From an uncultured Porphyromonadaceae bacterium (lineage in GTDB: Bacteria; Bacteroidota; Bacteroidia; Bacteroidales; UBA12481): a stretch of 37,220 bases of DNA. Shown here piece by piece: positions 3,669 to 28,907 of the stretch. Made by a program: the position numbers and the translations under genes. Position 1 is the first letter of the stretch; each line of letters opens with the position of its first letter. The stretch is taken from contig CAYGOU010000002.1 in the NCBI GenBank assembly GCA_964351455.1, positions 1-37,220 on the forward strand, written 5' to 3'. Below the pieces are notes generated by a model, which was given only the letters and a program-made list of their open reading frames with translations, was not told where the DNA came from and did not search any database.

Positions 3669-5765
3669 ATGAGGCCCTATCCAAAAACCGAATTGCTGAT
3701 CGTCGATGACCGCGACGAGAACCTGTTTGCCATGGAGGCACTCCTCGAACAACCTGACATTGAGATTCTTACTGCAAGATCAGGTAATGAGGCCCTGGGC
3801 ATCCTCCTTGAACACGAGGTGGCACTGATCCTTATGGATGTTCAGATGCCCGGTATGAATGGCTTCGAAACGGCAGAACTGATCCGCGGCAGCTCACGAA
3901 CCAAGCACATTCCGATAATTTTCGTAACGGCGATCAGCAAGGAGCGCCAGAATATTTTCCAGGGTTATGAATCCGGAGCCGTTGATTACCTTTTTAAACC
4001 GGTTGAACCGGAAATCCTGAAGTCGAAAGTCAGAGTCTTTATTGACCTTCACCTTCAAAAACAGACCCTTGAAAACATCACCCACAAGCTTGAAACCACC
4101 ATTTCTGAATTGATAGAATCGAAGAGGAAGCTGAGGCAAAGCGAGGAGACCGCCCGCGAGGCATGGAAAGCCGCCGAGATCGCCAGGCATGCTGCAGAAG
4201 AGGCCAACCGCGCTAAAAGTGAGTTTCTGGCCAACATGAGCCATGAGATCCGCACGCCACTCAACGGGATCATTGGCATGGCCGACCTGGCCCTGCTTGA
4301 GAACAGCTCCCCCGACCTCCGCGACAGGATTGAAAGCATACGAACCTCGGGTGACTCGTTGCTGGAGATTTTAAATGAGATTCTGGATCTCTCGAAAATT
4401 GAAGCTGAGCGCTTCGAACTCGAGAGTATCTCCTTTTCTCCCGCCGATGTTATGGAGAAGGTGGTCAGAATGCTGGCCGTGAAAATTTCAGAAAAGAACC
4501 TTGATCTTGTTTGTGAGGTTGATCCTCACCTTCCACTGGAGGTGACCGGGGATCCCACAAGGGTCCGCCAGATTTTACTCAACCTCCTGTCCAACGCCTA
4601 TAAATTCACGAACGAAGGCTCGATAACCATCACTGCCGGCCTGATCAGAAGAACACCCGAACGGGCGGTGATTCAATTTTCGATAGCCGATACCGGAATC
4701 GGAATCGATTCGACCAAGATCAACTCCATTTTCCAGTCGTTCAGCCAAGCCGAAATTTCAACCTCAAGGGTTTTCGGCGGAACCGGCCTGGGCCTTTCGA
4801 TATCCAGAAAGCTGGTTGACCTGATGCAGGGCAGAATCTGGGTGGAGAGTCAGGCCGGAATGGGATCAACCTTCTTTTTTGAGATTCCCTTCAGCCTTAA
4901 TGAAGCACCTCCCGCAGTTGAGCGATCGAATGACTATCTCAAGTTGTCACCCGTCCTCATGCTCGAACCCTCTCCGGGAAATGGTTTCAACGCTGAGAAA
5001 CTACTGCAGTATTATGGAGTTGAGTGCGTGGTGACCAACAGCTTGCAGGACCTGAAGCATGCAAGAGTATCAGAAAAGTCCCCGTATCGTTCACTATTTA
5101 TCGACAGCCAACTTTACCAGGATGCCAGAATCCGGGAGGATGCTCCTTTAGCCCTCCTTGATGAGCTGCTGACCTTGGATGCTCCGCGGGTGGTCATGAT
5201 CACCGACAACCAGCTGGGGAGAAAGGACTCTTACATTGAAGATGGGTTTACCGCTGTTGCCATGAAACCGCTCTTTCCGAAAACCATCCGAAAGACATTT
5301 CAGGAGATCCTCACTCCGGCCAAGCTCAATGAACCCATTAAGAGACAAGATATTGTTCATACTTCGCTGGAGGATCCCTTACGCATTCTGCTGGCTGAAG
5401 ACAACCGGATCAATGCACGGCTGGCCTTTGGCTTCCTGCAGTTGAGAAACTGGAAGGTAGACCATGCTTTGAATGGCATGGAAGCGGTCAACCTATTCAG
5501 AGAAAATCCATATGATCTGATCCTGATGGACATACAAATGCCGGAGATGGATGGGTATGAAGCCACCAGGATCATCCGTAACGATGAAAACCTTTCCGGC
5601 CGCAAACCAATTCCCATTGTTGCCCTTTCGGCCCATGCCATGCGTGGCGATATCGACAAGGCCCTGAATTCGGGCATGGACGATTACATTACAAAGCCTT
5701 TCAAGCCGAGTGAATTATACGAGGTTATTCTGAAACTGACGCAATCAAAAACCGCTGACCATTGA
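3669..5765 (+). CDS. Hybrid sensor histidine kinase/response regulator (REC - coiled coil - HisKA - HATPase_c - degenerate REC - REC), cytoplasmic
   Basis: N-terminal REC: LIVDDRDEN...[13 protein letters not shown]...YLFKP. H-box: [16 protein letters not shown] box: [13 protein letters not shown] boxes: DTGIGI and [14 protein letters not shown]-terminal REC: [10 protein letters not shown]...[13 protein letters not shown]...DYITKP. Confidence 0.9.
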
Positions 5766-6119: not shown

Positions 6120-9100
6120 ATGTTTATCAACTGGCTGAAGAATAAAACGATCAACACGAAACTCCATCTGATGATCGCCATTTCACTGGTTTCTCTAATG
6201 CTTCTTGGTGCGGTTTCAAACTACCTCATCAACAGCACCAAGGTAGTAAGCATCATGCTGGTAGCACAACGCGACTACATGATGGCCTACCACGAGAGCC
6301 TCGAATTATATTACCAGTCGCTCGCTTTCCCCGGGGAGCGAGAAAAGTTTCTTAACAAAGCCATCGACCGGTTGACCAGGGCAAACCGGCAACTTGACTT
6401 TTTTGCCGGAGTCGATAGTCTGTTTCAGAACCTTTCAAGCAAGGAGATTGTTGAAGAGGCCAGAAGTATTTATGGGAGTGCGCTCAAAGACTCGAAAGAC
6501 CCCGATGGCCTGAAAAACGCCCAATTGCTAGTGGCGAGGGTAGGCCTGATCAGGAAACTCTCAAAGGAGATGTTGAACACCAGCATTGTTTCAACTGAGA
6601 TCTCGAGAAAGTATGCCTTTGAGATTCTTGAAGTTTTCAGAAAAGAGCTTATCAGTCCGGGCAGTGCAGCCCTCTCGGGCCTTAACTTGGATGAAACTCT
6701 GGCCAACATGGCCAGGCAGGAAAAGGACTACGCCGAAGATGTAAGAAACCTGGGATCCACAACGGTTACCCAACTGAGGCTGGCCATACTGGCGATCGTC
6801 GTGATTTTGGGTTTCGTGATTTTCTTGCTCTCGAAGGTGCTTTCAAGAATGATTGCACAGCCGGTTTCCCAAATCCGCGACAACCTTGAGCAGATGTCAT
6901 TGGGCCGGCTCGACCTCGAGGCAAGTTATGTTTCAAAAGACGAGGTGGGTCAGCTTGCTGCCTCTTATCGAAGCATGCAAGCCACTTTGCGCCAGCAGGC
7001 TGATCATGCCCAAAAGGTAGCCACAGGGGATTTCAGCGCCTTGCTAAACCCGAGGTCGGCCCACGACGAACTCAGCCTGGCACTGAATGAAATGACCCTG
7101 GCCCTCAGAAAAGCGGACGAGAAGAACCAGCTTGAAAACTGGGTTAAAACCAATCAGAATCAGCTAAGTCAGGAGTTACAGGGCGATCTTGACCTGGCAA
7201 GCCTCGGTCAGAAGATCACCACCCTGCTTTCAAACCAGCTTGGCGCTCATGCCTCTGCCCTGTTCTCATCCGATCAAAACGGAAAGCTGGTTTTTGTTGG
7301 AGGCTACGCCGTCAACACGGGTCAGCTGGCCGGCAGAAGCTTCAAATCGGGCGAAGGACTCCCCGGACAGGCCATGAAGGATAAAAAAATCCTCTCGGTG
7401 GATGATGTCCCTGAAGGGTACCTTGATGTTTGCAGCGGGCTTGGCAGCGCCCTGCCAAGGCATCTATATGTAGTACCCTGTATCTACAGCAATGAGACCG
7501 AAGGAGTCATTGAACTTGCCTGTCTTGAAGCCTTAGGTGAAAACAAACTCGCATACATAGGTCTGGTTGCAGAAGCCATTGCGATCGCCCTCAGGAGCTC
7601 AAAATCCAGAACCGAGCTCCAGAACCTTCTCAGGCAACAGAAAGAACTTGCCGAAGAGTTGCAGGTACAGCAGGAAGAGTTACGCCAGACCAACGAAGAA
7701 CTTCAGGTACAGCAGGAGGAATTGCGTCAGGCCAATGAAGAGCTGGAGGCCCAGACCCGCTCGCTGGAGGAGTCAAAAGCCAATCTGCAGGCTCAGCAGG
7801 AGGAATTACGGGTCACCAACGAGGAACTGGCCGAAAGAACCCGAGCCATTGAAAACCAGCGTGAGGCCCTGAGACGCAAAAATGATGAACTCGAAAGGGC
7901 GCGGCAGGAGATTGAGCAAAAAGCACGGGATCTTGAACAGACCAGCCGCTACAAATCTGAATTTCTGGCCAACATGTCTCATGAACTGCGCACCCCTTTG
8001 AACAGCATTCTGGTGCTCTCTCAGATCCTGGCCCAGAATAAGCCGGATAACCTGAATGAGAAGCAGATTAAATCAGCCCAGACCATCCACTCTTCGGGAG
8101 TGAACCTACTGTCGCTGATCAATGAAATACTAGACCTGTCGAAAATCGAGTCCGGAAGAATTGATCTGCATTCAGAAGAGATCAATCTTCAGCAGGTGGT
8201 TGAGGAACTTAAAGAAAATTTCGCTCCTCTGGCTGAAGAAAAAGGTTTGGAAATCACCTTTTCTATCGGGGAAAAGATACCTGAGATCATCTTCAACGAT
8301 CCGATGCGGCTCGGACAGATCCTTCGCAACCTGCTCTCAAATGCAGTGAAGTTCACCGAACGCGGATCGGTCAGGCTGATGGTTGCCATGCACCCCGGGA
8401 CCGGCACCCAACCAGCATCCCCGGATGGGAAGAAAAGTTGGATTTCTATTTCGATCGAAGATACCGGTATCGGGATAGCAGGTGAGAAACAGAAGGAGAT
8501 CTTTGACGCCTTTAAGCAGGCCGATGGCACCACATCGCGCAAGTTCGGGGGCACAGGACTTGGACTTGCCATTTCGCGTAATTTTGCCAGGTTGATGGGA
8601 GGAGACATCCTGCTTGAAAGTGAGCCTGGAAAAGGAAGCAGGTTCATACTGGTTTTGCCCGAAAGGATTGAGCCTCAAAAACAGGTGGCCAAAGAAGACC
8701 TGCCCCCCGTAGTAAATACCATTGAGCTGCCTGCTGATCCGGCTGTTGCCCTCGATCAACCCATGACAGACCTGGATGCCAGTCCCCGCGAAACCTATGA
8801 ACTGATCATGGATGACCGGAAACACATCAAGAAGGGAGACCCCTTTCTGCTGATCATTGAGGATGATCCGGCATTTGCCCAGGTACTTTATGACCTTGCC
8901 CATGAAAAGCACTTCAAGTGCATGGTTGCACCCAACGGGGAAACCGGACTTCACTATGCAGATTATTACGGTCCGAGTGCCATCGTCCTTGACATCGGAC
9001 TTCCGGGAATAAACGGTTGGGAGGTCATGCAGCGACTTAAGGAAAATCCCTCAACCCGCCATATTCCGGTGCATTTCATGTCGGCCAGCGACAAAAGTAT

Positions 9101-10010
9101 TGAGGCCATGAGAAAGGGAGCGATCGGCTTTCTTAAGAAACCGGTTTCGGTGGAGGAGGTCAACGAAGCTTTTGATAAGATTGAAGGGATCATTTCCAAA
9201 CCGCTCAAAAAACTACTGGTGGTCGAAGATGACCCTGCCATGCAGCACAGCATCCGCGAGCTGATTGGAGAAGACAACATCCAGATTACCACCGTATCAA
9301 AGGGCCATGACGCTCTGAAGCAGCTTGAAAAGGAAAACTTCGACTGTATGATCCTCGACCTGGGTCTTGAAGATATGAGCGGCTATGATCTGCTGCAAAA
9401 GATAGTTCGAAACAGCGAAGCGCAGCGCATGCCCATCATCATTTACACGGGCAAGGACCTGACCAGGGAGGAGGAGGAAAAGCTGCAGAAGTATTCTGAC
9501 CGAATCATCATCAAAGGGATCCGTTCGCCTGAGCGCCTTTTGGCTGAAACCACCCTGTTTCTGCACCAGGTTGAAGCCAATCTGCCCGAATCTAAACAGC
9601 AGATGCTCAGGAAAATCAGGCCCCGTGAGGATTTCCTCAGAGAAAAGGTGGTTCTGATCGTTGATGATGACATGCGCAACGTGTTTGCCCTGACCAGTCT
9701 GCTGGAGGATCATGGGGTGAAAGTATTGGTGGGTCGCAACGGAAGAGAGGGCGTTGACAAGGCGACAAGCAACAAGGTTGACCTGATCCTGATGGACATC
9801 ATGATGCCGGAGATGAACGGGTATGAAGCAATGGAGGAGCTCAGGCGCAATAGTTCATTCAGGAAACTGCCAATCATCGCCCTGACGGCAAAGGCGATGC
9901 CAGGAGACCGCGAGCGCTGTATACAGTCGGGGGCCAATGACTACCTGGCCAAACCAATCGATGCCGAGAAACTCATTTCCATGTTAAGGGTATGGCTCTA
10001 TCAGGCTTAA
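6120..10010 (+). CDS. Large hybrid sensor histidine kinase (TM - ~180-aa helical extracytoplasmic domain - TM - HAMP(s) - GAF - long E/Q-rich coiled coil - HisKA - HATPase_c - three REC domains)
   Basis: Hydrophobic segments at about aa 15-37 and 218-239. HAMP-like segment: PVSQIRDNLEQMSLGRLDL...DEVGQLAASYRSM. H-box: [15 protein letters not shown] box: NLLSNAVKFT. G boxes: DTGIGI and GGTGLGLAISRNF. The three receivers read LLIIEDDP..VLDIGLPGINGW..FLKKP, LLVVEDDP..ILDLGLEDMSGY..IIIKG and VLIVDDDM..LMDIMMPEMNGY..YLAKP. Confidence 0.9.
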   Translation: MFINWLKNKTINTKLHLMIAISLVSLMLLGAVSNYLINSTKVVSIMLVAQRDYMMAYHESLELYYQSLAFPGEREKFLNKAIDRLTRANRQLDFFAGVDSLFQNLSSKEIVEEARSIYGSALKDSKDPDGLKNAQLLVARVGLIRKLSKEMLNTSIVSTEISRKYAFEILEVFRKELISPGSAALSGLNLDETLANMARQEKDYAEDVRNLGSTTVTQLRLAILAIVVILGFVIFLLSKVLSRMIAQPVSQIRDNLEQMSLGRLDLEASYVSKDEVGQLAASYRSMQATLRQQADHAQKVATGDFSALLNPRSAHDELSLALNEMTLALRKADEKNQLENWVKTNQNQLSQELQGDLDLASLGQKITTLLSNQLGAHASALFSSDQNGKLVFVGGYAVNTGQLAGRSFKSGEGLPGQAMKDKKILSVDDVPEGYLDVCSGLGSALPRHLYVVPCIYSNETEGVIELACLEALGENKLAYIGLVAEAIAIALRSSKSRTELQNLLRQQKELAEELQVQQEELRQTNEELQVQQEELRQANEELEAQTRSLEESKANLQAQQEELRVTNEELAERTRAIENQREALRRKNDELERARQEIEQKARDLEQTSRYKSEFLANMSHELRTPLNSILVLSQILAQNKPDNLNEKQIKSAQTIHSSGVNLLSLINEILDLSKIESGRIDLHSEEINLQQVVEELKENFAPLAEEKGLEITFSIGEKIPEIIFNDPMRLGQILRNLLSNAVKFTERGSVRLMVAMHPGTGTQPASPDGKKSWISISIEDTGIGIAGEKQKEIFDAFKQADGTTSRKFGGTGLGLAISRNFARLMGGDILLESEPGKGSRFILVLPERIEPQKQVAKEDLPPVVNTIELPADPAVALDQPMTDLDASPRETYELIMDDRKHIKKGDPFLLIIEDDPAFAQVLYDLAHEKHFKCMVAPNGETGLHYADYYGPSAIVLDIGLPGINGWEVMQRLKENPSTRHIPVHFMSASDKSIEAMRKGAIGFLKKPVSVEEVNEAFDKIEGIISKPLKKLLVVEDDPAMQHSIRELIGEDNIQITTVSKGHDALKQLEKENFDCMILDLGLEDMSGYDLLQKIVRNSEAQRMPIIIYTGKDLTREEEEKLQKYSDRIIIKGIRSPERLLAETTLFLHQVEANLPESKQQMLRKIRPREDFLREKVVLIVDDDMRNVFALTSLLEDHGVKVLVGRNGREGVDKATSNKVDLILMDIMMPEMNGYEAMEELRRNSSFRKLPIIALTAKAMPGDRERCIQSGANDYLAKPIDAEKLISMLRVWLYQA
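7659..7868 (+). repeat. In-frame 42-nt (14-codon) periodic array inside the kinase coiled coil. Units 1 and 2 are near-identical tandem copies and unit 4 is a third close copy.
   Basis: 7659-7700 encodes LQVQQEELRQTNEE, 7701-7742 LQVQQEELRQANEE, 7743-7784 LEAQTRSLEESKAN, 7785-7826 LQAQQEELRVTNEE, and 7827-7868 LAERTRAIENQREA. Leu occupies positions 1 and 8 of every unit. Confidence 0.85.
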
Positions 10011-10843
10011 AAGCGACAGAGGAGAACCACGATCTTCAGGACCTTGAAATAAGGCTGCTGCTGGAGGCGATTTATCTTAAATACGGATATGACTTCAGGG
10101 ACTATGGAAAGGCACATGCTAAAAGGAGAATCCTGCACAGAATGGCCCTCTCGGATATTCCCAATGTCACCCGCCTGCAGGAGCATCTGCTGTACGACGA
10201 ATCCTTTTTCAAGACCTTTCTCCAGGATCTCTCTATCAATACCACTGAGATGTTCAGGGATCCCGATTTTTTTAAACTCATTCGCGAAGTGGTGGTTCCG
10301 ATTTTAAAGACCTACCCCTTTCTTAAGATCTGGCATGCGGGATGTTCAACCGGAGAGGAGGTTTATTCGATGGCCATCCTGTTGAAGGAGGAGAGTTTGC
10401 TGAACCGCTGCCAGATCTATGCAACCGATTTCAATCCGATGGTGTTGCAGAAGGCACGTGAGGCAATCTATCCCATATCCCTGATGAAGGAATTCACGGC
10501 CAATTATATAAAATCAGGTGGCAAGACCTCCTTTGCTGATTATTACAACGCAAAGTATGACTCGGTCATCATGAAAAAGCCACTGAAAGAAAACATTGTA
10601 TTTGCCGACCACAATCTGGTGACCGACAGTGTATTCGGAGAGATGAACCTGGTTATTTGTCGCAACACCTTGATCTATTTTAACAAGGAACTGCAAGATA
10701 AGGTCATAGGATTGTTCGCCGAGAGCCTGCCTCCGGGTGGCTACCTGTGCCTGGGATCCAAGGAGAGCCTGACCTTCTCAAAGCATCTGCCACTTTTTGA
10801 TACGGTGGATGCGAAATGGAAGATATATCGTAAGAAATACTAA
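9992..10843 (+). CDS. cheR: CheR-type protein-glutamate O-methyltransferase
   Basis: The N-terminal helical domain (LLLEAIYLKYGYDFRDY), TEMFRDPDFF, and SAM site IWHAGCSTGEEVYSMAILL are all typical of CheR. The ATG at 9992 overlaps the kinase 3' end by 19 nt. Confidence 0.9.
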   Translation: MALSGLKATEENHDLQDLEIRLLLEAIYLKYGYDFRDYGKAHAKRRILHRMALSDIPNVTRLQEHLLYDESFFKTFLQDLSINTTEMFRDPDFFKLIREVVVPILKTYPFLKIWHAGCSTGEEVYSMAILLKEESLLNRCQIYATDFNPMVLQKAREAIYPISLMKEFTANYIKSGGKTSFADYYNAKYDSVIMKKPLKENIVFADHNLVTDSVFGEMNLVICRNTLIYFNKELQDKVIGLFAESLPPGGYLCLGSKESLTFSKHLPLFDTVDAKWKIYRKKY

Positions 10844-11438
10844 GTCAAGGGACAAGGTGAGCAGAAAGAACCAAAAGAAGTATCATGCAGTGGTGATGGG
10901 TGCCTCGGCCGGCGGATTGGATGTCCTTTCGATGATCCTTCCCGCACTTCGCGCCGAACTGCCCGTCCCGGTCATGGTGGTGCTGCACATCAGTCCCCAT
11001 TCTGATTCCTTTCTGGTTACATACCTTGACCAGATGAGTAAGGTTAAGGTTGTTGAAGCAGCCGACAAGGCCATGATGGAGCCAGGCAAGGTATATTTTG
11101 CCCCTCCGGATTATCACCTTATGGCTGAGCGGGACGGAAGTCTCTCGTTGAGCAATGAGGAGAAGGTCAACTACAGCAGACCAAGCATAGATGTTCTGTT
11201 TGAAACCGCCTTGTGGGTATTCGGGAGCGGACTGATCGGTGTCTTACTCACGGGTGCCAACTGGGACGGAGCCAAGGGGATGGAGTTGATACACAAAAAA
11301 GGGGGCTACACCATCATTCAGGATCCGGCTACGGCATCCATGCCAAGGATGCCGGAAGCTGCCATGGAGAAATTCATGCCCGATGCAATCTTACGGGCAG
11401 AGGATATCGGACAGGCGATTAACAAGCTCCTGTTATAA
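10809..11438 (+). CDS. cheB: CheB-type protein-glutamate methylesterase/glutamine deamidase, catalytic domain only (no receiver domain)
   Basis: Nucleophile motif VVMGASAGG, His motif VVLHISPH, and Asp motif LTGANWDGAKG...GGYTIIQD. The start is ambiguous among TTG 10797, ATG 10809 and GTG 10857 (13 nt after the cheR stop). All three precede the first catalytic strand. Confidence 0.85.
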   Translation: MRNGRYIVRNTKSRDKVSRKNQKKYHAVVMGASAGGLDVLSMILPALRAELPVPVMVVLHISPHSDSFLVTYLDQMSKVKVVEAADKAMMEPGKVYFAPPDYHLMAERDGSLSLSNEEKVNYSRPSIDVLFETALWVFGSGLIGVLLTGANWDGAKGMELIHKKGGYTIIQDPATASMPRMPEAAMEKFMPDAILRAEDIGQAINKLLL

Positions 11439-16272: not shown

Positions 16273-17718
16273 TCAACTACTTACGTTGGCGGGTTTCCAG
16301 TGCGGGGCGCGGTAAATAAGCACATAGCTCATCAATATCACCACGTTAATGGGCATCTGTCCGTAAAGACCGTTTCCATAGCTGGCAACCATAATTCCAA
16401 AGATGCCTGAAACCAGGGCCACTAAAATGTTTCTCAACTCCGGATCTTTTAGTTTCCAGACAATGATGGAGCATCTTGCAAGGAGGTAAAACAGAATAAA
16501 AAGGTGCAATGAAAGACCAATAATACCCATCTCTGCCCAGATCCTCACATACCAGCTGTCGGTTGGTGTTTGAGCCAGGAAAGTATTAGGACTGAACCGC
16601 ATGCCCCAGTTGCCCGCTGATCCGATTCCTCCCCCAAAAGGTTTATCTGCGAGATAGGTCTTTAATCTTCTTTGGTTTTCAAGCCTGACCTGAAAGGAGG
16701 CATCAAGGGCAGGTCTGACCGCAGTACGCAGTCTGTAGATCTGATAGCTGGTGTTTCCAATGAAGGTAAAACGAAGGATGCCAAAAACCGCAAGTCCTAA
16801 TATCATTCCAACAGCAAATACCTTAAAGTTTCTGCTGAGAAAGAGGTAGAGCATTCCACCGGCTGCCGGAACCGCCAGGGCCCCACGGGTTCCGGAATAA
16901 AGCATGCCGGCAAAGCAAATTGCGGCCAACATCAGGAGGATCCATTTCAGGTAGCTCTTCAACTTACCAAAGGCCATCAAACCGGCCACCAGAGCCGTCT
17001 GCCCCATTGCTGCACCGAAAACCCCTGCATCCGAATAAAATGAAAAGGCCCTTAATCGCCCCTGAATCCGATGGGTCAGTCCTCCGCCCCCATCCAGCCA
17101 CTTTGTTTCAAACGGGTCGGTACCGATCACAATTTGCTGGATTCCCTTCAACGAGGCCAGCAACGAAAATCCAAACCAAATGATGAGAAACAGTCTGAGA
17201 TCACTTCGATCACGCACCACCATCAGTCCAAGCGGAATCAGCAGAATCTGATAGAAGGCCACCCCCCTCATGGCATAAAACCATGCAACAAAACTTACCG
17301 CCTCGGGATTGAACAACTGCACCAGGGTGTATCCCATCCAGACCAGCGACATCAACACAAGGTCATTTTTAACCGGAGACCAGTTTCTGAATTTTCCCCT
17401 TGAGAGGAGCAGCGAAACCAGTCCCAACAGGAGGATGGCATCCACGAATAATCCGAAAGGCACCATATCCCCAGCATAGCGGGGAATTCCGTTTGCCAGG
17501 AAGGCAAATGCAAAAGCATAGAAAAGTCCCGCCCTCGAATCCCTGAAGATGTGAATCAGGGCGAATATCCCAGCTGGCAAAACCACCAGCATCACCCCGA
17601 ATACCAGTCCCTTCAATGCAATTCCGGCAGATGCCACCACGGCAAACAGCAGCAAGGCGGCAATAATTGATGGCTGGCGAATTCTGGCAGCACCGGTTTC
17701 ACGAAAAAGGTCACTCAT
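16273..17718 (-). CDS. Wzy / O-antigen-ligase-family (Wzy_C-like) polytopic membrane protein
   Basis: 481 aa with at least 10 hydrophobic helices. The SGTRGALAV and WAEMGIIGLSL segments resemble Wzy_C family blocks. It overlaps the upstream flippase gene by 8 nt. Confidence 0.65.
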   Translation of the reverse strand: MSDLFRETGAARIRQPSIIAALLLFAVVASAGIALKGLVFGVMLVVLPAGIFALIHIFRDSRAGLFYAFAFAFLANGIPRYAGDMVPFGLFVDAILLLGLVSLLLSRGKFRNWSPVKNDLVLMSLVWMGYTLVQLFNPEAVSFVAWFYAMRGVAFYQILLIPLGLMVVRDRSDLRLFLIIWFGFSLLASLKGIQQIVIGTDPFETKWLDGGGGLTHRIQGRLRAFSFYSDAGVFGAAMGQTALVAGLMAFGKLKSYLKWILLMLAAICFAGMLYSGTRGALAVPAAGGMLYLFLSRNFKVFAVGMILGLAVFGILRFTFIGNTSYQIYRLRTAVRPALDASFQVRLENQRRLKTYLADKPFGGGIGSAGNWGMRFSPNTFLAQTPTDSWYVRIWAEMGIIGLSLHLFILFYLLARCSIIVWKLKDPELRNILVALVSGIFGIMVASYGNGLYGQMPINVVILMSYVLIYRAPHWKPANVSS

Positions 17719-19051
17719 CTCGTTGCGGTTTGAGCAGCTTCAAAAGGTTTGAGCGAATTGCCCTGTAACCGTATGGAAATATCAGCCAGATGGGGGTACC
17801 CAACTCCCGGTTCAACAGCAGGTTTCCGACGAAGACCCCGATCACAACATTCATGATGGTGACAGCCGCCACCAACTCAAGCGAACCGAAATAATGAATG
17901 ACCAGAACATCTCCGATGATATTGGCAGCAGCCATAATAAAAACCTTGAACATGTTCAGCCGGGGACGGTTTACAGCATCCAGTGCTACCCCGCTGAATC
18001 GGTCCATCGGCAAAAACAGCGCATAAATCAGAAAAATCCAGAATATCGTGTAGGAGGATGCATACTCGGCACCTCCAAGCAGGAGGGTAAGCGGTTTGGC
18101 GAGCAAGAAAAGCAATATGACCAACGGGACAAAAACCAGCGATGCGATGCCCGTATAAGTGTAAAAAATACGCTTAACCTCAAAATCCCTTCCCCTTCGG
18201 CTCTCCTGGCTCATCCTCGGAAAAGCCACGGCAACAAGGCTGCGGATGGGAATTTCAACAATCTCGATTAACTTGAGTGGAATGCTGTAATAAGCCACAT
18301 CCGCCTGGGTCATCATGATCCCAAGGATGAAGGTATCAGAGCTTTTAAGCAGGTTCGAACCCAGTAAAGTACCCAGGCTGTAGCGGCCAAAGCGAAGTTG
18401 CTCTATGATGTAACGTTTTTGCGCCCTGAACAGGTGCTCGATACCCGTCCACCCCATCGCGACCGCGATAATGGATGCAATAGCAAATGAAGCAATATGG
18501 GCCAGCAGCACCCATCGCACATCGAGTCTCAGGAAAAAAAAGTTGATGGTCAGAAAGACGAAAAACGCCCCCATGCTTATGCTTCTGAGTGAGAGTATAC
18601 GTGCGAAATCACCTCGCGCCTGCAGGATGGAGAAGGTCATGTTCAGGGGCATCAGAAAAAGCGATAAGACCGGATACCAAAAGAAAAAGAGGCCGAAGCC
18701 CTTGGCGTCAATCTGCTCCTTGAAGAGCGCATAACTCGAATAAAGCAGCAGAACGGCGGCCAGGGTTACCAATGCCGACAAAACCCAGGATGCCCCAATC
18801 AAACCGGCCGCCTCTCTCTTATCCTGTGAACCCGAAAGAAACCTCACCAGGGGTGTACCGTTGAGTCCGGTTCGGATCATCTCAACAATGGCCATACCCG
18901 ACAGGTAGATGACCCATTCTCCAAAATCACTCTTGGGCAGGGATCTTGAAAGGAGGGCTACATTGGCAAAACCAAATAATGCAATGACCAGATTATTGGT
19001 AAGGGAGACAAAGTTTTTATTCCGAATCAGGGATAGAATTTTCTGGCGCAT
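17711..19051 (-). CDS. wzx: Wzx-type oligosaccharide flippase (MOP superfamily polysaccharide biosynthesis protein)
   Basis: 446 aa with about 12-14 TM helices. The N-terminus (LTNNLVIALFGFANVALLSRSLPKSDFGEW) is typical of Polysacc_synt proteins. The polysaccharide locus context supports the call. Confidence 0.7.
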   Translation of the reverse strand: MRQKILSLIRNKNFVSLTNNLVIALFGFANVALLSRSLPKSDFGEWVIYLSGMAIVEMIRTGLNGTPLVRFLSGSQDKREAAGLIGASWVLSALVTLAAVLLLYSSYALFKEQIDAKGFGLFFFWYPVLSLFLMPLNMTFSILQARGDFARILSLRSISMGAFFVFLTINFFFLRLDVRWVLLAHIASFAIASIIAVAMGWTGIEHLFRAQKRYIIEQLRFGRYSLGTLLGSNLLKSSDTFILGIMMTQADVAYYSIPLKLIEIVEIPIRSLVAVAFPRMSQESRRGRDFEVKRIFYTYTGIASLVFVPLVILLFLLAKPLTLLLGGAEYASSYTIFWIFLIYALFLPMDRFSGVALDAVNRPRLNMFKVFIMAAANIIGDVLVIHYFGSLELVAAVTIMNVVIGVFVGNLLLNRELGTPIWLIFPYGYRAIRSNLLKLLKPQRDE

Positions 19052-19055
19052 GGCG

Positions 19056-21782
19056 CTATAGGGATTTTGCCACCCGGAACTCCAGCCGGATCAGTTTTTT
19101 GGCAAGTATCCTCAGTTTGCTCCTCCTCCTGGGAATCTCACCGATTATAGATTCAAGGTGTTCGACCTGGCAGCCATTCAGCAGGACATTCACTGGATGA
19201 TCGACCTGAGTCTTGTACAGACTTAGCGCTTCGGCATCGGCGTTGTTCCATGATCTGTTGGCCCGGCATACCAGGAGGGTAAGCTGTCCCGATTTCAGAA
19301 GACTCGCGGGATATTCGTTCAGAAGCAGCGATGGCAGTTCAACCAGGATGAATTGATAGCCCTTAAGTACCACCGTGAAGTTTCGCAGCAGGTCGTTCAG
19401 GTTCTTGACCCCCATAAAATTTTCAGGCACCTCATATTCATAATCCCAGGCGGGTTTATCTGGCAGGTTCTGTCCAAGCATTGATCCCGCAGGATCATGG
19501 GGTGCCGAATCGAGCGGCTTTATATACAGAACCTTGATCTTCGATTGTCTTAGCTTCACGGCCAGTTTTGATGCAAGAAAGGTTTTGCCTTCGTTCTGCC
19601 GGGTACTGGCGATAAAAATCAGGAATGGCAATTCACCCCTTGAACGCTGGTTGTATTCCTCCAGCTTAATGCGCTGGGTCATGAGATCCGTCAGTCTTGA
19701 GACGATAAGATCATAATTGATTGCATGATCGGGCCATTCAGGTACTTTCGGAAAAGCACCGAACAGTTTCAAACCGGTACGCTGGGAGGTACGTTCGGGC
19801 ATCTTAAGGGTTCCGTCAAAGAATTCAAGCAGTATGATCAGTGCTCCAGCCATTCCCAGTCCGGCGATGAAAGCTGCCAGGATCAGGTACATGCGCTTTG
19901 ATGGATTGGGCTTTAGCGGATAAACCGGTTCATCGATCACCTGGAGGTTAGACTGCTCAACATTTTTCTGCTTTGTAATACTCAGGTTGTAATTGTGGAG
20001 GTGGTTAAGATACTCCTCTTCAGCAAGGTTCATCTGCCGCTCAAGCACATTGAGTTTACTTCCAACCGGAGCAAAGGTGTCATAAGCCTCCAGGAACTCC
20101 TTTTTCCGGTTTCCCAGCACCTTATACCGTGCTGTACTCTGTTCTACCTCAATCACCTTCTCAAGCCATTGAGTGAGCAGTTCCTGTCGGTTCATCCCTG
20201 CTGTTGAGAAGCTGGCCACATAAGCCGACTCAATGGCTCTGCTCAACCTGCCCTTTAGTTGGGCCTCTTCCAATTTGAGCCGTGTCAGCTCTTCCGGATC
20301 GGCATCGCCCTGGATTTCAGCCATAGCAAGCCTCACGGTTAAGTCTCTGAGGTTTTGCCTGACCTCCATGATCGAAGCATTCTGAAGGTTCATCCTTTCC
20401 CGTTCGTCCATGGTTTGCTCAATTGACTGAAGAGCAGCTTTCGCAGCAGAGAGGCTTCCAAGCTCAGCGGTATAATCCCTGTCGAGCACCTCTTTTTGTT
20501 CAGCAATGAACTTGGTTTGTTCATTGTAATTGATGATCCGGTTTTCCATCCTGAAGCGCAGCTCCTCCTGCTCGAGGCTGTCGAGAAGGCTTTTGGCCAG
20601 CTCCATCCGGTCGCGGAAATAATCAGAAACAATCAGTGTCTGGGAGGTTGTGATGGTCTGGTTCTTTTCAAAAAAGACCTCCGTCATAATACGGAGGGTA
20701 TTGACACAGACGGCAGGATCGGTTGATTCGTAAGTCAGCCTGATGTAGTCAGAACTCTGAATTCGTTGAACCCGGATCGAGGAGATCTTTGAGACACTGT
20801 AAAAGGGATTCGATGACTGCAGGATTCGGAAAATCTCGTTTGACTGGTTACGGCTCTTGTAAGTTTTAAGGTTTTCATAGGTTTTCTGCCAGGCGCCCCT
20901 TTTCTCAAGGATTACGGTCTGGAAAGTCTGGTCGAAGTTTCTTGCGATGGAGTCCATTTTTCTGGAGGGATCCTGAGCCAGGTAATCTGAAGCCACGGGA
21001 TCAACCTCAACTGTCGCAGTTTGTTCACCGACCGGGCTGTTGACAGGCAATGATACCGGGGTCTCCCGAATCACAAGGCTGTCGACAAGGTAGCGTTCTC
21101 TGACCTCCCCAACGATGAGGCGCTGTCCACCCTGTAGTTGTTCGAGGTCTGAACGGTTCAGCCTGATAAGCTCGTCAACTGAAACATCATTCATACGGGC
21201 AATCAGGGCAGGATAATCGCCCGATTTGACCCTGTAATACTTAGGAGTAACGCGAAACTTCTCAATCTGAAGGTTAACGGTATCATACCTGATGCTTAAA
21301 ACCTCCTCCTGAGAGGCGGATGCCGGCTGAGACTCCGGCATGCTTGAATCGACCTCGGTGGCCGGTTGCGATTGAACGCTCACTGCTTCTCCAGGCCTGA
21401 CCACCAGGTCGGTCACCGCTCTGGGGAGTTCTTCAAGCAGGCTGTTTCGTGTCTCCTCCCTGCAAATGCCGATGTCAGGCTGTTCAAGCATGAGATGCTG
21501 GGCCATGAGCCTGAGTGCGGTTTCCTCCTGGGCATCCCTGCTTTTGATGAGGTTGATCAGGTTGTCAAACTTTGCATTGGTAGCAAAGAGGTTAAATCCC
21601 GAATTGGCACCGGTTTCAATGTTGTATCCGGTGGCGATACCGGTGTATATGGTGGTCTCTGTGGTATATGATCGGGGTTGCCGGCGGGTCATAACCATGA
21701 CAATGACCGCCATGAGAAGGCCAACACCCAGAATCAGCCAAACATTCTTTAAAAGTAGTCTTATGAAATAGACCAGGTTCAT
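19056..21782 (-). CDS. Polysaccharide co-polymerase (Wzz/Wzc-like) with an inserted periplasmic LysM domain and a degenerate C-terminal BY-kinase-like P-loop domain
   Basis: TM1 spans aa 14-31. LysM reads YYRVKSGDYPALIARMNDVSVDELIRLNRSDLEQLQGGQRLIVG (aa 182-225). A long coiled coil follows, then a GNVR-like LQVIDEPVYPLKPNPSKR plus TM2 (aa 631-653). The Walker-A-like motif is IASTRQNEGKTFL. There is no C-terminal Tyr cluster. Confidence 0.75.
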   Translation of the reverse strand: MNLVYFIRLLLKNVWLILGVGLLMAVIVMVMTRRQPRSYTTETTIYTGIATGYNIETGANSGFNLFATNAKFDNLINLIKSRDAQEETALRLMAQHLMLEQPDIGICREETRNSLLEELPRAVTDLVVRPGEAVSVQSQPATEVDSSMPESQPASASQEEVLSIRYDTVNLQIEKFRVTPKYYRVKSGDYPALIARMNDVSVDELIRLNRSDLEQLQGGQRLIVGEVRERYLVDSLVIRETPVSLPVNSPVGEQTATVEVDPVASDYLAQDPSRKMDSIARNFDQTFQTVILEKRGAWQKTYENLKTYKSRNQSNEIFRILQSSNPFYSVSKISSIRVQRIQSSDYIRLTYESTDPAVCVNTLRIMTEVFFEKNQTITTSQTLIVSDYFRDRMELAKSLLDSLEQEELRFRMENRIINYNEQTKFIAEQKEVLDRDYTAELGSLSAAKAALQSIEQTMDERERMNLQNASIMEVRQNLRDLTVRLAMAEIQGDADPEELTRLKLEEAQLKGRLSRAIESAYVASFSTAGMNRQELLTQWLEKVIEVEQSTARYKVLGNRKKEFLEAYDTFAPVGSKLNVLERQMNLAEEEYLNHLHNYNLSITKQKNVEQSNLQVIDEPVYPLKPNPSKRMYLILAAFIAGLGMAGALIILLEFFDGTLKMPERTSQRTGLKLFGAFPKVPEWPDHAINYDLIVSRLTDLMTQRIKLEEYNQRSRGELPFLIFIASTRQNEGKTFLASKLAVKLRQSKIKVLYIKPLDSAPHDPAGSMLGQNLPDKPAWDYEYEVPENFMGVKNLNDLLRNFTVVLKGYQFILVELPSLLLNEYPASLLKSGQLTLLVCRANRSWNNADAEALSLYKTQVDHPVNVLLNGCQVEHLESIIGEIPRRRSKLRILAKKLIRLEFRVAKSL

Positions 21783-22540
21783 TATTTGGCTATTGATAAG
21801 CTGTTCAATTCAGTGCCAACCAGTTCACCCATTAGCTGCCAGGCTTCACGGAAATCCCTTCTGACCTCTTCGAACTGTACCTGTGAGTTGGTGGTTAGCT
21901 CCACCACCCTGGCAAATTGCTCGATGGTGATATCGGCTGTTTGATATGCTCGCTGGGCCCATTCATAGTTGGTCTCCTGAGCTGTTTTGTGGTTGCTGAG
22001 AATGGGAATCATCCGTTCGAGGTAAAGCAACTGATTGTATAGTTTTATCACCTCATTGGTGACCAAATTCTTCACTTCATCCATTTTGAATTCTTCAAAC
22101 TTAAGCTGCTCCCTGGCAATTTTGATTTTCCGGCTCTGGTCAAGTGCATCAAAAAGAGACAGGTTGATCCTGGTGCCAAAATTAAATCTGTTGGCCATGG
22201 TAAAATCCCTGTCGAGGGGAGTGCCATCCGGAGCCAGGATGAAGAAATCCACGGTACCGTAACGGTAATCCGCAGAGGCAGTGATGTTGCGTGACCAGTC
22301 AAATTTCTGGGTCTTCAGCTGGTATTCCCGGATTCGGATCAGGGATTCCTGCTGGTCAAGCAAGGGCGAATGTGTTAGCGCTTCATCAATGAGTTCGCCC
22401 AGGGGAGGCAGATTAGATTTGAAATCTTTCAGCGCCTGCGGGTCGAGAGTCTGTGACCTTATCTGTGAGTCGATCCCTGCAAGGAAAGAAACCAACAGAA
22501 TTAATTTCAGGCAATGTTGACAGATAATCCGCTTTCTCAT
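21782..22540 (-). CDS. Secreted TolC/OEP-like protein of half normal size (single repeat, 252 aa)
   Basis: Signal-peptide-like N-terminus ([22 protein letters not shown]). LGELIDEALTHSPLLDQQESLIRIREYQLK resembles the N-terminal OEP repeat motif. A beta-like segment (NITASADYRYGT) is followed by long helices. Starts and stops overlap with both neighbouring genes. Confidence 0.45.
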   Translation of the reverse strand: MRKRIICQHCLKLILLVSFLAGIDSQIRSQTLDPQALKDFKSNLPPLGELIDEALTHSPLLDQQESLIRIREYQLKTQKFDWSRNITASADYRYGTVDFFILAPDGTPLDRDFTMANRFNFGTRINLSLFDALDQSRKIKIAREQLKFEEFKMDEVKNLVTNEVIKLYNQLLYLERMIPILSNHKTAQETNYEWAQRAYQTADITIEQFARVVELTTNSQVQFEEVRRDFREAWQLMGELVGTELNSLSIAK

Positions 22541-23721
22541 ACATCCTCTTTTTGCATGAAGGCTGTAAAGGTTCTGAGTATGATGATCATATCCTTCCAG
22601 AATGAGTAGTTCCGAGCATATTCGTTGTCGAGCGCCTTTCTCTCCTCATTTGACATATCAGACTTTCCCCTCTTGCTCACCTGCCATAAACCGGTTATGC
22701 CAGCCGGTGCGAGGAACCTTTCGGTCCATGAATCAGAGGTAAGCAATTCGGCCTCGTAAAGCGGAACGGGACGATTGCCTACAATCGACATTTCGCCCCT
22801 GAGAACATTGAAGAGTTGCGGCAATTCATCAATGCTGGTCTTTCGGATTAAACGCCCCACCTTGGTTACCCGCGGGTCATTTTTGATCTTATTGAAAGTC
22901 TTGCCAAGCTTTTGTCGCTTGTACTGGAGATACTGCCTTTCACAAACTTCGTGCTCACGGATGTAAAGCAGGGTTGAACAGGGTTTTCCGAGCCTTGAAC
23001 ATTCAGGGCATTCTTCGTAAAGGGCATCCTCTTCCTTGTCTTTCTCAGCGTATTGGTTGAGGTGTTTGAGCTCCTTCAGACGTGCATCGGCGCCTGTGAA
23101 CATCGAGCGAAACTTAAAAAACGGGAAAATGGTATATCCCGCTCCAACGCGCTTGGCTGCGTAGAATACCTTTCCCTTTGATTCTATTCTAATTGCAGCC
23201 GCCACAATTAATAGCAGAGGTGACAACATCACAAGGGCTGCAGAGGCAAATAAAATATCAAAAATCCGCTTTTCAAGCGGAATACGCACCTTTTCCTGTT
23301 TGGATTCAAGAATGGAGATAACCGATTGACTCCGGCGAAATTTCATCAGGAAATCTGTCCTTATCCTGAATTTCACCATATCCAGCGGTTTCCTGATCAG
23401 ATCATCCACTCCTGCCTTGATTGCCCGCATGCGCTCCTCCCGGTCGCTACCGGCATCCACCAGGATAAAAACTGCCAACTGGTTGACGAACTTCTGCCTG
23501 AATTCTTCATAAAGGGCATATCCCGACATGCCCGGCAGAATCAGTTCTGAGACAATCACATCGGGCCGCTCATCGGCATCCAGCCGGCTGATGGCCAAAT
23601 ATCCATTTTCAGCACTGGAAACTTTAAGCAGAGGATCTGTCGACAGAGATTCTAATACCTGGGAATCGCCTCCCACATATAAAACCGATATCGTTGCTTG
23701 CTGGTCTTCACTCATTGCCAT
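22537..23721 (-). CDS. Receiver-like domain fused to a priming phosphoglycosyltransferase (bacterial sugar transferase, WbaP/PglC family)
   Basis: REC-like aa 10-125: [14 protein letters not shown]...[12 protein letters not shown] domain: [34 protein letters not shown]...FKFRSM...[37 protein letters not shown]. Confidence 0.85.
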
Positions 23722-25619: not shown

Positions 25620-25627
25620 AACAATCC

Positions 25628-26569
25628 ATGAAAAAGATACTGGTAACCGGGGGTGCGGGATTTATAGGTTCGCATCTGTGCGAAAGGCTGCTGAATGATG
25701 GACATGAGGTCATTTGCCTCGACAATTATTTTACTGGTAGCAAACAAAATGTTATCCACCTGATCAGCAACCCATATTTCGAACTCATACGCCACGATGT
25801 CACCACCCCCTTCTTTGTGGAGGTGGATGAGATCTATAACCTTGCCTGTCCCGCCTCCCCGATCCATTACCAGTACAATCCCATCAAGACCATCAAGACT
25901 TCGGTTATGGGAGCGGTTAACATGCTGGGACTTGCCAAGCGAATCAGGGCCAGGATCCTTCAGGCATCCACCAGTGAAGTGTACGGTGACCCTCAGATCC
26001 ACCCGCAGACTGAAGATTACTGGGGTCATGTGAATCCGATTGGTTTGAGATCCTGTTATGACGAGGGCAAGCGATGTGCAGAATCCCTCTTTGTAAATTA
26101 TCACCAGCAGAACCAGGTGAGGATCAAAATTATCAGGATTTTCAACACCTATGGTCCGCGTATGCATCCACAGGATGGAAGGGTGGTTTCAAACTTCATC
26201 ATTCAGGCACTGCGCAACGAACCCATATCAATTTATGGCGACGGATCGCAGACACGCAGCTTTCAGTATGTCGATGACCTGGTTGAAGGAATGATCCGCA
26301 TGATGAATTCCAGGGAGGAGTTTACCGGTCCTGTTAACATTGGCAACCCCAGGGAGTTCACCATCCGCGAACTGGCTGAAAAGGTGATTGAACTTACAGG
26401 ATCATCTTCAAAACTGGAGTTCTATCCGCTACCACAGGATGACCCCACACAGCGGCAGCCCGACATATCACTGGCCCGCAGGGAACTGGGGAACTGGGAG
26501 CCGTTGATTCATCTTGACGAGGGACTTGCAAAGACGATCGGCTATTTCAAAAACCTGCTAAATCTCTGA
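25628..26569 (+). CDS. uxs: UDP-glucuronate decarboxylase (UDP-xylose synthase)
   Basis: [86 protein letters not shown] and [10 protein letters not shown]...DGRVVSNF. These are UXS-specific blocks rather than RfbB blocks. Confidence 0.9.
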
Positions 26570-26570
26570 C

Positions 26571-27452: not shown

Positions 27453-27462
27453 CACAAAGCGC

Positions 27463-28889: not shown

Positions 28890-28907
28890 CCACTAAACAT
28901 TGCTACC

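What the first reader, a model, noticed from the sequence alone, without database searches (positions are those of the whole stretch)
7659..7868. 14-residue-periodic E/Q-rich coiled coil with near-identical 42-nt tandem repeats: a candidate methylation and deamidation site array
Just upstream of the H-box, the large kinase contains five consecutive in-frame 42-nt units with Leu at positions 1 and 8. Units 1, 2 and 4 encode LQVQQEELRQTNEE, LQVQQEELRQANEE and LQAQQEELRVTNEE. Units 1 and 2 are also nearly identical at the DNA level.

Each of these three units presents a QQEE quartet on a predicted coiled coil. Adjacent Glu/Gln pairs on heptad repeats are what CheR methylates and CheB demethylates or deamidates in MCPs. 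The fit to the classical MCP site is only partial: small residues should flank the E/Q pair, and here only the T or A at +4 fits. From memory, very similar EELQ..NEEL repeats occur in CheB-CheR fusion kinases, which would link this motif to these enzymes.
Basis: partly seen in the sequence, partly recalled or inferred. Interest (0 to 1): 0.65.

Follow-up and report, generated by a model that had tools for sequence, protein, structure and literature searches.

The report
Likely methyl-accepting coiled coil in kinase
A glutamate-rich helical repeat that connects the sensor to the catalytic part of a bacterial signalling kinase is almost always encoded next to (or fused to) the two enzymes that add and remove methyl groups on chemotaxis receptors, so it is probably their so-far untested target.

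Summary
The repeat is real. Three copies of L-Q-x-Q-Q-E-E-L-R-x-[TA]-N-E-E lie at 7659, 7701 and 7785, inside an unbroken run of 16 heptads. That run forms one predicted helix from the GAF domain into the phospho-accepting His621.

The claim of near-identity at the DNA level is overstated. Units 1 and 2 share 33 of 42 bases, which is exactly what codon usage predicts for those peptides.

The motif is the signature of a very large kinase family (4627 clusters at 50% identity), which includes Pseudomonas putida CfcA. In 70 of 72 informative genomic loci from many phyla, cheR follows the kinase on the same strand, usually with a REC-less cheB. This window has the same arrangement. A related heptad array (NEELQS[AST]) occurs in 120 of 120 CheB/CheR fusion kinases examined.

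So the link between the motif and CheR/CheB is strongly supported. Methylation itself is inferred, not shown. [quoted passage not shown] The two Gln residues are invariant and never Glu, so they do not behave like deamidation sites. The second Glu of each pair is the residue that exchanges with Gln.

I found no paper describing methylation of such kinases. I rate this a new variant of a known kind, with interest about 0.6.

The parts
6120..10010 (+). Hybrid sensor histidine kinase, 1296 aa. It has two TM segments flanking an N-terminal extracytoplasmic region, then HAMP, GAF, a long coiled coil, HisKA, HATPase and three REC domains.
   Evidence: ORF list; Pfam; coordinates
7188..7592 (+). GAF domain (aa 357-491). 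Its last helix continues into the coiled coil.
   Evidence: Pfam GAF_2 9.5e-08; AF2 model
7617..7952 (+). Unbroken run of 16 heptads (aa 500-611) with L/I at the first position of 15 of the 16 heptads (the second is Gln507). Composition: 28 acidic, 18 basic and 26 Gln/Asn residues. It is part of one predicted helix spanning aa 474-638.
   Evidence: Heptad layout; composition; AF2 helix with block-mean pLDDT of 95 or more over the array
7659..7700 (+). Motif copy 1, LQVQQEELRQTNEE. This is the extra 14-residue copy, shared only with the closest Bacteroidales relatives.
7701..7742 (+). Motif copy 2, LQVQQEELRQANEE. It corresponds to the distal copy found across the family.
7743..7784 (+). Conserved spacer, LEAQTRSLEESKAN. 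Family consensus is L-E-[EQ]-Q-[ATS]-x-x-L-x-x-S-[EQ]-E-x.
7785..7826 (+). Motif copy 3, LQAQQEELRVTNEE. This is the proximal copy. It starts 65 residues before His621, a distance conserved in the family.
7827..7868 (+). It is two ordinary heptads of the linker and not a motif copy.
7980..7982 (+). Codon of the phospho-accepting His621 in the H-box SHELRTP.
   Evidence: HisKA aa 612-679
9992..10843 (+). cheR, encoding a protein-glutamate O-methyltransferase of 283 aa (CheR_N + CheR). Its start overlaps the end of the kinase gene by 19 nt.
   Evidence: Pfam 7.8e-44; aligns over its full length with CheR structures 5FTW and 1AF7
10797..11438 (+). cheB, encoding only the methylesterase/deamidase catalytic domain (213 aa, no REC). 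The Ser (GASAGG), His and Asp that align with the catalytic positions are present.
   Evidence: Pfam 5e-53; alignment to 3SFT and 1CHD
3669..5765 (+). Partner kinase REC-HisKA-HATPase-REC (698 aa). A gene of this type accompanies the module in every other locus where the neighbours were examined (three loci), at varying positions.
   Evidence: Pfam; L077; Pseudomonas cfcD; L083
5762..6100 (+). Hpt phosphotransfer protein (112 aa).
   Evidence: Pfam Hpt 2.1e-08

Best explanation
The repeat is the conserved core of the signalling helix of a CfcA-type hybrid histidine kinase. It is a parallel coiled coil that carries the signal from the GAF domain to the catalytic His. Each heptad has one Leu, a polar Asn or Gln at the other core position, and an exposed Glu-Glu pair just before the Leu. 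The result is a weakly packed, strongly negative helix pair (net -10 per chain over aa 514-570).

I propose that the CheR encoded immediately downstream methylates Glu residues of these pairs, most likely the second Glu of each pair, and that the REC-less CheB removes the methyl groups. Neutralising the charge would change the stability or register of the coiled coil, and so set the kinase/phosphatase balance. This would give an ordinary two-component kinase the kind of covalent adaptation or gain control known from chemoreceptors.

Shown here: the anatomy of the repeat, its conservation, and its genetic linkage and fusion with CheR/CheB.
Inferred: that the array is the substrate, which residue is modified, and the effect on kinase activity.
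For: 1. Gene neighbourhood. 80 genomic loci were found through the motif. Of the 72 with at least 1.2 kb downstream, 70 have cheR on the same strand, and 62 of those lie within 200 bp of the kinase stop. cheB follows in 62 of 67. Taxa include Bacteroidales, Desulfobacterota, Pseudomonas, Clostridium, Desulfosporosinus, Fusobacteriaceae, Planctomycetota, Spirochaetales, Magnetobacterium and Acanthopleuribacter.
2. Three further loci, from high-GC poly-HAMP and CHASE3 variants of the family, also have cheR after the kinase.
3. Two related GAF or HAMP hybrid kinases without the motif have no cheR or cheB nearby.
4. Fusion evidence. 120 of 120 CheB/CheR fusion kinases carry a NEELQS[AST] heptad array directly after CheR. 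It has Asn and L/V/I at the two core positions, and its EE pairs fit EE-x-x-[ST]-[SAT].
5. The window's CheR is closer to the CheR domain of the fusions (135-158 bits) than to chemotaxis CheR structures (80-111 bits). CheB lacks REC in both groups.
6. Exposed positions are conserved far more than a plain linker needs. L1, Q4, Q5, E7, L8, N12 and L15 are nearly invariant in 156 unique sequences. The second residue of each EE pair is replaced almost only by Gln (E140/Q12 and E119/Q27), whereas the first is replaced by Ala or Asp.
7. The last copy sits at a fixed distance from the H-box. Copy number varies only in steps of 14 or 28 residues.
8. AF2 predicts one helix for aa 474-638 with block-mean pLDDT of 95 or more over the array.
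9. The catalytic residues of CheB and the fold of CheR are intact.
10. The 37-kb window encodes no MCP, CheA or CheW.
11. In P. putida the orthologous cluster is cfcABCDE. The cfcB/cfcC (CheR/CheB) pair has had a role in chemotaxis ruled out (PMC4951495). The Pseudomonas loci found here match CfcA, including His496.
12. There is a precedent for a non-chemoreceptor CheR substrate: PhoP in Salmonella (abstract of PMC8546571).
Against: - No modification data exist for any member.
[quoted passage not shown] The Ala position is small in only 10-26%.
- The geometry differs from chemoreceptors. The model shows a single continuous helix, presumably a parallel dimer, not an antiparallel four-helix bundle.
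- Co-occurrence cannot by itself separate the array from other conserved parts of the same proteins, such as the REC domains or the partner kinase. Only the fusion family narrows it down.
- Glu-Gln exchange is a common substitution in any coiled coil, and the counts are not phylogenetically independent.
- Two loci (L002, L024) have the motif without a neighbouring cheR. Some clades have cheR but no cheB.
- The loci kept were the 80 best matches to this window, so sampling is biased toward relatives.
Confidence: 0.6

Rival explanations
1. The array is only a structural signalling helix between GAF and DHp. The neighbouring CheR/CheB act on something else in the module, such as a REC domain, the partner REC-kinase, or a distant chemoreceptor.
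For: Coiled-coil linkers before HisKA are general (own knowledge; single long helix). CheR methylates a REC-domain protein, PhoP, in Salmonella (abstract of PMC8546571). The kinase has three REC domains, and a REC-kinase partner gene is conserved. The fit to the chemoreceptor consensus is partial.
Against: The fusion family shares only the heptad array, CheR, REC-less CheB and the kinase core with this family, yet the array is present in 120 of 120. Some fusions lack REC altogether (P0476, P0480). Exposed Glu, Gln and Asn positions are nearly invariant. A chemotaxis role for the P. putida pair was ruled out (PMC4951495). The window has no MCP.
Confidence: 0.2
2. The array is a docking or tethering site that recruits CheR and CheB, comparable in role to the C-terminal pentapeptide of some chemoreceptors, while the modified residues lie elsewhere.
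For: The sequence is strongly conserved and repeated, and always co-occurs with the enzymes. Repetition suits avidity as well as it suits multiple sites.
Against: In the fusions the enzymes are already covalently attached, so a tether would be redundant. The EE pairs followed by small residues resemble substrate sites rather than the aromatic pentapeptide.
Confidence: 0.1
3. One reading: each QQEE quartet works like a chemoreceptor QEQE site, with CheB deamidating the two Gln and CheR methylating all four positions.
For: CheB is a deamidase as well as an esterase (established knowledge), and QQ directly precedes EE in every copy.
Against: Gln4 and Gln5 are essentially invariant and almost never encoded as Glu (Q150/K6 and Q148/R6/E1/K1 in the proximal copy). 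That is not how sites that function as Glu behave. In the fusion family the equivalent position is an invariant Asn at a core position, which suggests a structural role.
Confidence: 0.08
4. The 42-nt tandem repeat is a recent duplication or a slippage-prone, length-variable tract.
For: TRF detects a period-42 array. Copy number differs between relatives.
Against: Synonymous sites between the two copies are fully randomised (33/42 identical, 33.0 expected). The same three-copy layout is kept in relatives about 60% identical. No length variants appear in metagenome contigs that span the repeat.
Confidence: 0.02

Closest known systems
CfcA of Pseudomonas putida KT2440 (PP_3761), first gene of cfcABCDE, which activates the diguanylate cyclase response regulator CfcR
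   Same: Same family. It has GAF, two LQxQQEEL...N..L units at the same distance from the H-box, HisKA-HATPase and REC domains. It is followed by cheR (cfcB), a REC-less cheB (cfcC), a REC-kinase (cfcD) and a REC protein (cfcE) (PMC4951495).
   Different: CfcA has a CHASE3 sensor and no HAMP, whereas the window kinase has a different N-terminal sensor plus HAMP. CfcA has two units rather than three. The partner kinase and Hpt lie upstream in the window. The published work, as far as I could read it, does not address methylation of CfcA.
Adaptation (methylation) helices of methyl-accepting chemotaxis proteins
   Same: Glu-Glu pairs recur with heptad spacing on a coiled coil, and the genes are linked to CheR and CheB. 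The second residue of each pair exchanges with Gln. A Ser/Thr/Ala follows four residues after it.
   Different: The kinase has no MCPsignal domain. The model is a single continuous helix rather than a hairpin forming a four-helix bundle. The Ala position of the consensus is not kept. The output is the protein's own HisKA kinase rather than CheA/CheW. CheB has no REC domain.
CheB/CheR fusion kinases (CheB-CheR-coiled coil-PAS_10-...-HisKA-HATPase-REC)
   Same: They have the same kind of heptad: [NQ]-E-E-L-x-x-x, with a polar residue and Leu at the core positions. They also have a REC-less CheB, and their CheR is 33-36% identical to the window's.
   Different: The enzymes and the array are on one polypeptide. 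The array lies before PAS_10, far from the H-box. The heptad is uniform (NEELQS[AST]) and fits the chemoreceptor consensus better.
Signalling helix (S-helix) linkers between sensor domains and DHp in histidine kinases (own knowledge: Anantharaman, Balaji and Aravind 2006)
   Same: A parallel coiled coil continuous with DHp helix 1, with its length conserved in heptad steps.
   Different: The sequence signature is different, and S-helices have no known association with modifying enzymes.
CheR-dependent methylation of the response regulator PhoP in Salmonella (PMC8546571)
   Same: A precedent for CheR acting on Glu/Asp pairs of a two-component protein that is not a chemoreceptor.
   Different: That substrate is a REC domain, not a coiled coil, and the enzyme is the chemotaxis CheR rather than a dedicated operon partner.

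Membership tests
CfcA-type GAF-coiled-coil hybrid histidine kinase with cheR-cheB operon | GAF domain directly N-terminal to the coiled coil that leads into HisKA | tested here: met
   GAF aa 357-491 and HisKA aa 612-679; one helix aa 474-638
CfcA-type GAF-coiled-coil hybrid histidine kinase with cheR-cheB operon | One or more L-Q-x-Q-Q-E-E-L-x-x-[TSA]-N-E-E-L units, with the last at a fixed distance from the H-box | tested here: met
   Three units. The proximal unit starts 65 residues before His621, the same offset as in 156 of 205 unique family sequences.
CfcA-type GAF-coiled-coil hybrid histidine kinase with cheR-cheB operon | cheR and a REC-less cheB immediately downstream on the same strand | tested here: met
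   cheR 9992..10843 and cheB 10797..11438; same order in 70 of 72 loci
CfcA-type GAF-coiled-coil hybrid histidine kinase with cheR-cheB operon | C-terminal REC domains and an accompanying REC-HisKA-HATPase partner gene | tested here: met
   Three REC domains; partner gene 3669..5765; compare
CfcA-type GAF-coiled-coil hybrid histidine kinase with cheR-cheB operon | Output through a c-di-GMP response regulator (CfcR-like) | tested here: not met
   The window encodes no GGDEF or EAL protein. The output here is unknown. This is a property of the P. putida system rather than of the family (Clostridium L074 has REC-GGDEF).
Methyl-accepting chemotaxis protein (adaptation region) | MCPsignal domain forming an antiparallel four-helix-bundle hairpin | tested here: not met
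   No MCPsignal hit in Pfam; a single continuous helix is predicted
Methyl-accepting chemotaxis protein (adaptation region) | [quoted passage not shown] | tested here: inconclusive
   The EE pair and the Ser/Thr/Ala position are kept. The Ala position is Q, V or R in most members (consensus from PMC1079850).
Methyl-accepting chemotaxis protein (adaptation region) | Demonstrated reversible Glu methylation by CheR/CheB | not testable with these tools
   Needs biochemistry or mass spectrometry
CheB/CheR fusion kinase | CheB and CheR domains on the same polypeptide as the heptad array | tested here: not met
   Here CheR and CheB are separate ORFs
CheB/CheR fusion kinase | [NQ]EEL heptad array | tested here: met

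The most novel reading that the evidence does not exclude
A very large and so far unrecognised class of classical histidine kinases may be methyl-accepting. The class covers thousands of CfcA-type kinases plus the CheB/CheR fusion kinases, many of them from lineages such as Bacteroidales in which chemotaxis is not expected (own knowledge; not tested here). In this reading, dedicated CheR/CheB pairs reversibly methylate an Asn/Gln-zipper coiled coil placed in the signalling path, often directly before the catalytic His. That would give two-component systems chemotaxis-like adaptation or memory without MCP, CheA or CheW.
Probability: 0.5. Interest if true: 0.8.

Novelty: new variant of a known kind. 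Interest (0 to 1): 0.62.

Why it matters
CheR and CheB are textbook enzymes of chemoreceptor adaptation. Many genomes carry copies with no assigned substrate, for example CheR3/CfcB of P. putida, whose role in chemotaxis was ruled out, and the widely annotated 'CheB/CheR fusion proteins'.

If the EE-heptad coiled coil is their substrate, three things follow:
1. These orphan enzymes would be explained.
2. Covalent adaptation would be shown not to be restricted to chemoreceptor arrays.
3. A short, recognisable sequence signature would predict which kinases are regulated this way.

The hypothesis can be tested directly in a tractable organism. P. putida cfcA/cfcB/cfcC has an existing phenotypic read-out in c-di-GMP levels, colony morphology and biofilm.

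Tried and rejected
- Pfam and NCBIfam hold no model for the coiled coil. The precomputed Pfam codes on fragment hits (PF28019, PF28175, PF27881) are not in the local Pfam copy; a local scan of those fragments found only weak, sub-threshold matches to unrelated coiled-coil families.
- A profile search of the array against PDB sequences returned only designed or unrelated coiled coils.
- The first alignment (A1) was too diverse for the search for related loci, so a narrower one (A2) was used.
- Ten literature searches found no report of methylation of CfcA-type kinases, and none on the fusion proteins' coiled coil. Several of these were uninformative because of word collisions.
- Four key papers were not held: Garcia-Fontana 2013, Tagua 2022 (tried by DOI only) and Kaczmarczyk 2015.
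- The conserved extreme C-terminus of the kinase (...RVWLY) was considered as a pentapeptide-like tether. I rejected this because it lies inside helix 5 of the last REC domain (Pfam REC match to aa 1289 of 1296) and its aromatic spacing differs.
- A hairpin or four-helix fold for the 28-residue super-repeat was considered and rejected on the AF2 model.
- Recent duplication or slippage was rejected.
- P0164, which has a degenerate motif, could not be judged because its contig ends right after the gene.
Full report
**What is in the sequence**

The finding lies in a 1296-aa hybrid histidine kinase (ORF 6120..10010, + strand). Pfam gives HAMP (aa 240-292), GAF (357-491), HisKA (612-679), HATPase (726-849) and three REC domains.

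The five 42-nt units start at 7659, 7701, 7743, 7785 and 7827. Units 1, 2 and 4 are copies of L-Q-x-Q-Q-E-E-L-R-x-[TA]-N-E-E. Units 3 and 5 share only the heptad Leu, and position 8 of unit 5 is Ile.

The real period is 7 residues. L or I recurs at the first position of 15 of the 16 heptads from L500 to L605 (the second is Gln507), with no shift of register. AlphaFold2 with a 30-sequence alignment predicts a single helix from aa 474 to 638, with block-mean pLDDT of 95 or more over the array. The helix runs from the end of GAF into the H-box His621, whose codon is 7980-7982.

The pattern EEL...[NQ]EEL occurs five times here. Codon-shuffled versions of the gene give 0.0002, and the pattern appears nowhere else in the six frames of the window.

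**The DNA-level claim**

TRF reports a period-42 array with 84% matches. However, units 1 and 2 share 33/42 bases, and two random codings of these peptides with the gene's own codon usage share 33.0 +/- 2.0. Synonymous sites are therefore saturated, so the duplication is old and is maintained at the protein level.

The same three-copy layout is present in five relatives that are only about 60% identical overall (P0121-P0125). Metagenome contigs spanning the repeat show no length variants.

**A family signature**

A search with the 135-aa linker found 2904 proteins at E <= 0.001. A profile search over 1.84 billion representatives found 4627 clusters at E <= 0.001 and 1284 at E <= 1e-10.

The usual layout is two units 28 residues apart. 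They are separated by a conserved spacer, L-E-[EQ]-Q-[ATS]-x-x-L-x-x-S-[EQ]-E-x. The last unit sits at a fixed distance from [16 protein letters not shown]. Copy number ranges from 1 to 4 and changes only in steps of 14 or 28 residues.

Sensor modules vary across the family: HAMP, CHASE3, dCache, 4HB_MCP and NIT. The GAF-coiled coil-HisKA core is constant.

In 156 unique sequences, positions L1, Q4, Q5, E7, L8, N12 and L15 are nearly invariant, and position 11 is T, A or S. The first residue of each EE pair tolerates Ala or Asp. The second is replaced almost only by Gln (E140/Q12 and E119/Q27). Neither Pfam nor NCBIfam has a model for this segment.

**Link to CheR and CheB**

In the window, cheR (9992..10843) overlaps the kinase stop codon. 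A cheB that encodes only the catalytic domain (10797..11438) overlaps the end of cheR. CheR aligns over its full length with solved CheR structures. CheB keeps the Ser, His and Asp that align with the catalytic positions.

A scan of one genome per species with the motif returned 484 confirmed relatives, of which the best 80 were kept. Results for the 72 loci with at least 1.2 kb downstream of the kinase:

| Feature | Count |
|---|---|
| cheR on the same strand | 70 of 72 |
| cheR within 200 bp of the kinase stop | 62 |
| cheB following (loci with enough sequence) | 62 of 67 |
| motif kinase without a neighbouring cheR | 2 (L002, L024) |

The taxa span Bacteroidales, Desulfobacterota, Pseudomonas, Clostridium, Desulfosporosinus, Fusobacteriaceae, Planctomycetota, Spirochaetales, Magnetobacterium and Acanthopleuribacter.

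Three loci from more distant variants (high-GC poly-HAMP, and Bacteroidota CHASE3) also have cheR after the kinase, though without cheB. Two related hybrid kinases without the motif have neither gene nearby. The window encodes no MCP, CheA or CheW.

**Fusion evidence**

All 120 fusion proteins examined carry an array of about 9-11 heptads right after the CheR domain. They come from a family of at least 7989 proteins. A typical array reads NEELQSA NEEVQSA NEELQST NEELETS KEEIQSS NEELTTV ....

Position 1 of the heptad is dominated by Asn and position 4 is L, V or I. That spacing suggests Asn at core position a and Leu at d, which would put the EE pair at b and c. By analogy, in the kinase family Q5 and N12 would be at a, L8 and L15 at d, and Q4 and T11 at g. 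This assignment is an inference.

The window's CheR is 33-36% identical (135-158 bits) to the CheR domain of the fusions. Against chemotaxis CheR structures it scores 80-111 bits. CheB is REC-less in both groups.

**What is known**

The Pseudomonas loci are orthologues of CfcA (PP_3761). The phospho-accepting His falls at residue 496 in L044, as published for CfcA. CfcA is the first gene of cfcABCDE. The authors state that cfcB and cfcC encode a CheR/CheB pair whose role in chemotaxis was ruled out. [quoted passage not shown]

I confirmed the gene order in Pseudomonas: kinase, cheR, cheB, REC-kinase, REC. A REC-kinase partner gene recurs in the other three loci where I examined the neighbours, at varying positions. 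It lies upstream in this window together with an Hpt gene, between the kinase and cheR in Marinifilum, and after cheR in L083. In Clostridium puniceum a REC-GGDEF gene follows cheB.

Ten literature searches found no report or proposal that CheR methylates these kinases. Only open-access papers and bioRxiv could be searched, and three directly relevant papers were not held.

**Comparison with chemoreceptor sites**

- The fusion heptad E-E-L-Q-S-[AST] fits it well.
- The kinase heptad E-E-L-[RKQ]-x-[TSA] keeps the EE pair and the Ser/Thr position. The Ala position is small in only 10-26%.
- The Gln-Gln that precedes each EE pair is essentially never Glu. It therefore does not evolve like a deamidation site and is better read as structural.

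**Mechanism proposed**

The array is a weakly packed, highly acidic coiled coil. Over aa 514-570 it has 15 acidic and 5 basic residues. It lies directly in the signal path to the catalytic His.

I propose that CheR methylates Glu of the EE pairs, most likely the second Glu of each pair, and that CheB reverses this. The change in charge would alter coiled-coil stability or register, and with it the kinase output.

The anatomy, the conservation and the genetic linkage are shown. The modification, the modified residue and the effect on activity are inferred. Because CheB has no REC domain, any feedback would have to come from conformation-dependent access to the substrate, or from regulation elsewhere. 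That point is speculation.

**Rivals**

- The array is only a structural linker and the enzymes act on REC domains or on the partner kinase (0.2).
- The array is a docking site rather than a substrate (0.1).
- The repeat is a recent or unstable tandem duplication (0.02).

**Verdict**

I rate this a new variant of a known kind of system: CheR/CheB-type covalent modification applied to a classical kinase. It is well supported by comparative genomics but has not been tested biochemically.

Noticed in passing
window 22537-23721 (- strand), with 16273-22540: A response-regulator receiver domain is fused to a bacterial sugar transferase (REC + Bac_transf). It sits in a polysaccharide cluster with Wzy-like, flippase, LysM and outer-membrane efflux genes. 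It is a possible output of a phosphorelay, reminiscent of the CfcA-to-biofilm link in P. putida.
   Followed up: partly
window 24297-30692: Nucleotide-sugar genes lie next to the polysaccharide cluster: a UDP-glucose dehydrogenase, an NAD-dependent epimerase/dehydratase, a nucleotidyl transferase, dTDP-4-dehydrorhamnose 3,5-epimerase (Pfam dTDP_sugar_isom), an RmlD-type reductase and a phosphoglucomutase.
   Followed up: no
window 9990-10007 (end of the kinase); loci L001-L080: The kinase ends in ...RVWLY[KQRN] within 0-2 residues of the stop codon in most non-Pseudomonas relatives. Pseudomonas has ...RVWLP[KQ][LM]ERI. This is probably just helix 5 of the last REC domain, but the conservation of the extreme terminus is striking.
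   Followed up: partly
L002 (5145-7511) and L005, L008, L022: Copy number of the unit varies between species: four copies in L002 (three tandem 14-mers plus one) and three copies at 28-residue spacing in several Desulfobacterota. Changes are always whole double-heptads, so the phase to the H-box is kept.
   Followed up: partly
L024 (kinase 6740-10399) and L002: Two motif-bearing kinases have no cheR in the sequence available: none anywhere in the 18-kb L024 locus, and none in the 1.3 kb downstream in L002. Whether cheR lies elsewhere in those genomes is unknown.
   Followed up: partly
L081, L082, L083: High-GC poly-HAMP variants and a Bacteroidota CHASE3 variant have cheR after the kinase but no cheB within 8 kb. 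In these records the kinase genes are split into several called ORFs, probably by assembly frameshifts.
   Followed up: no
window 6500-10900: Near-identical sequence occurs in groundwater and sediment metagenome runs. The closest genome relatives are uncultured Bacteroidales/Porphyromonadaceae MAGs, so the window is probably from an uncultured Bacteroidales bacterium.
   Followed up: partly
window 7567-7872 (+ strand, other frame): A 101-aa ORF overlaps the repeat in another frame. It is Arg/Ser/Pro-rich, which is what reading the GAG/CAG-rich repeat out of frame would give. It is most likely not a gene.
   Followed up: no
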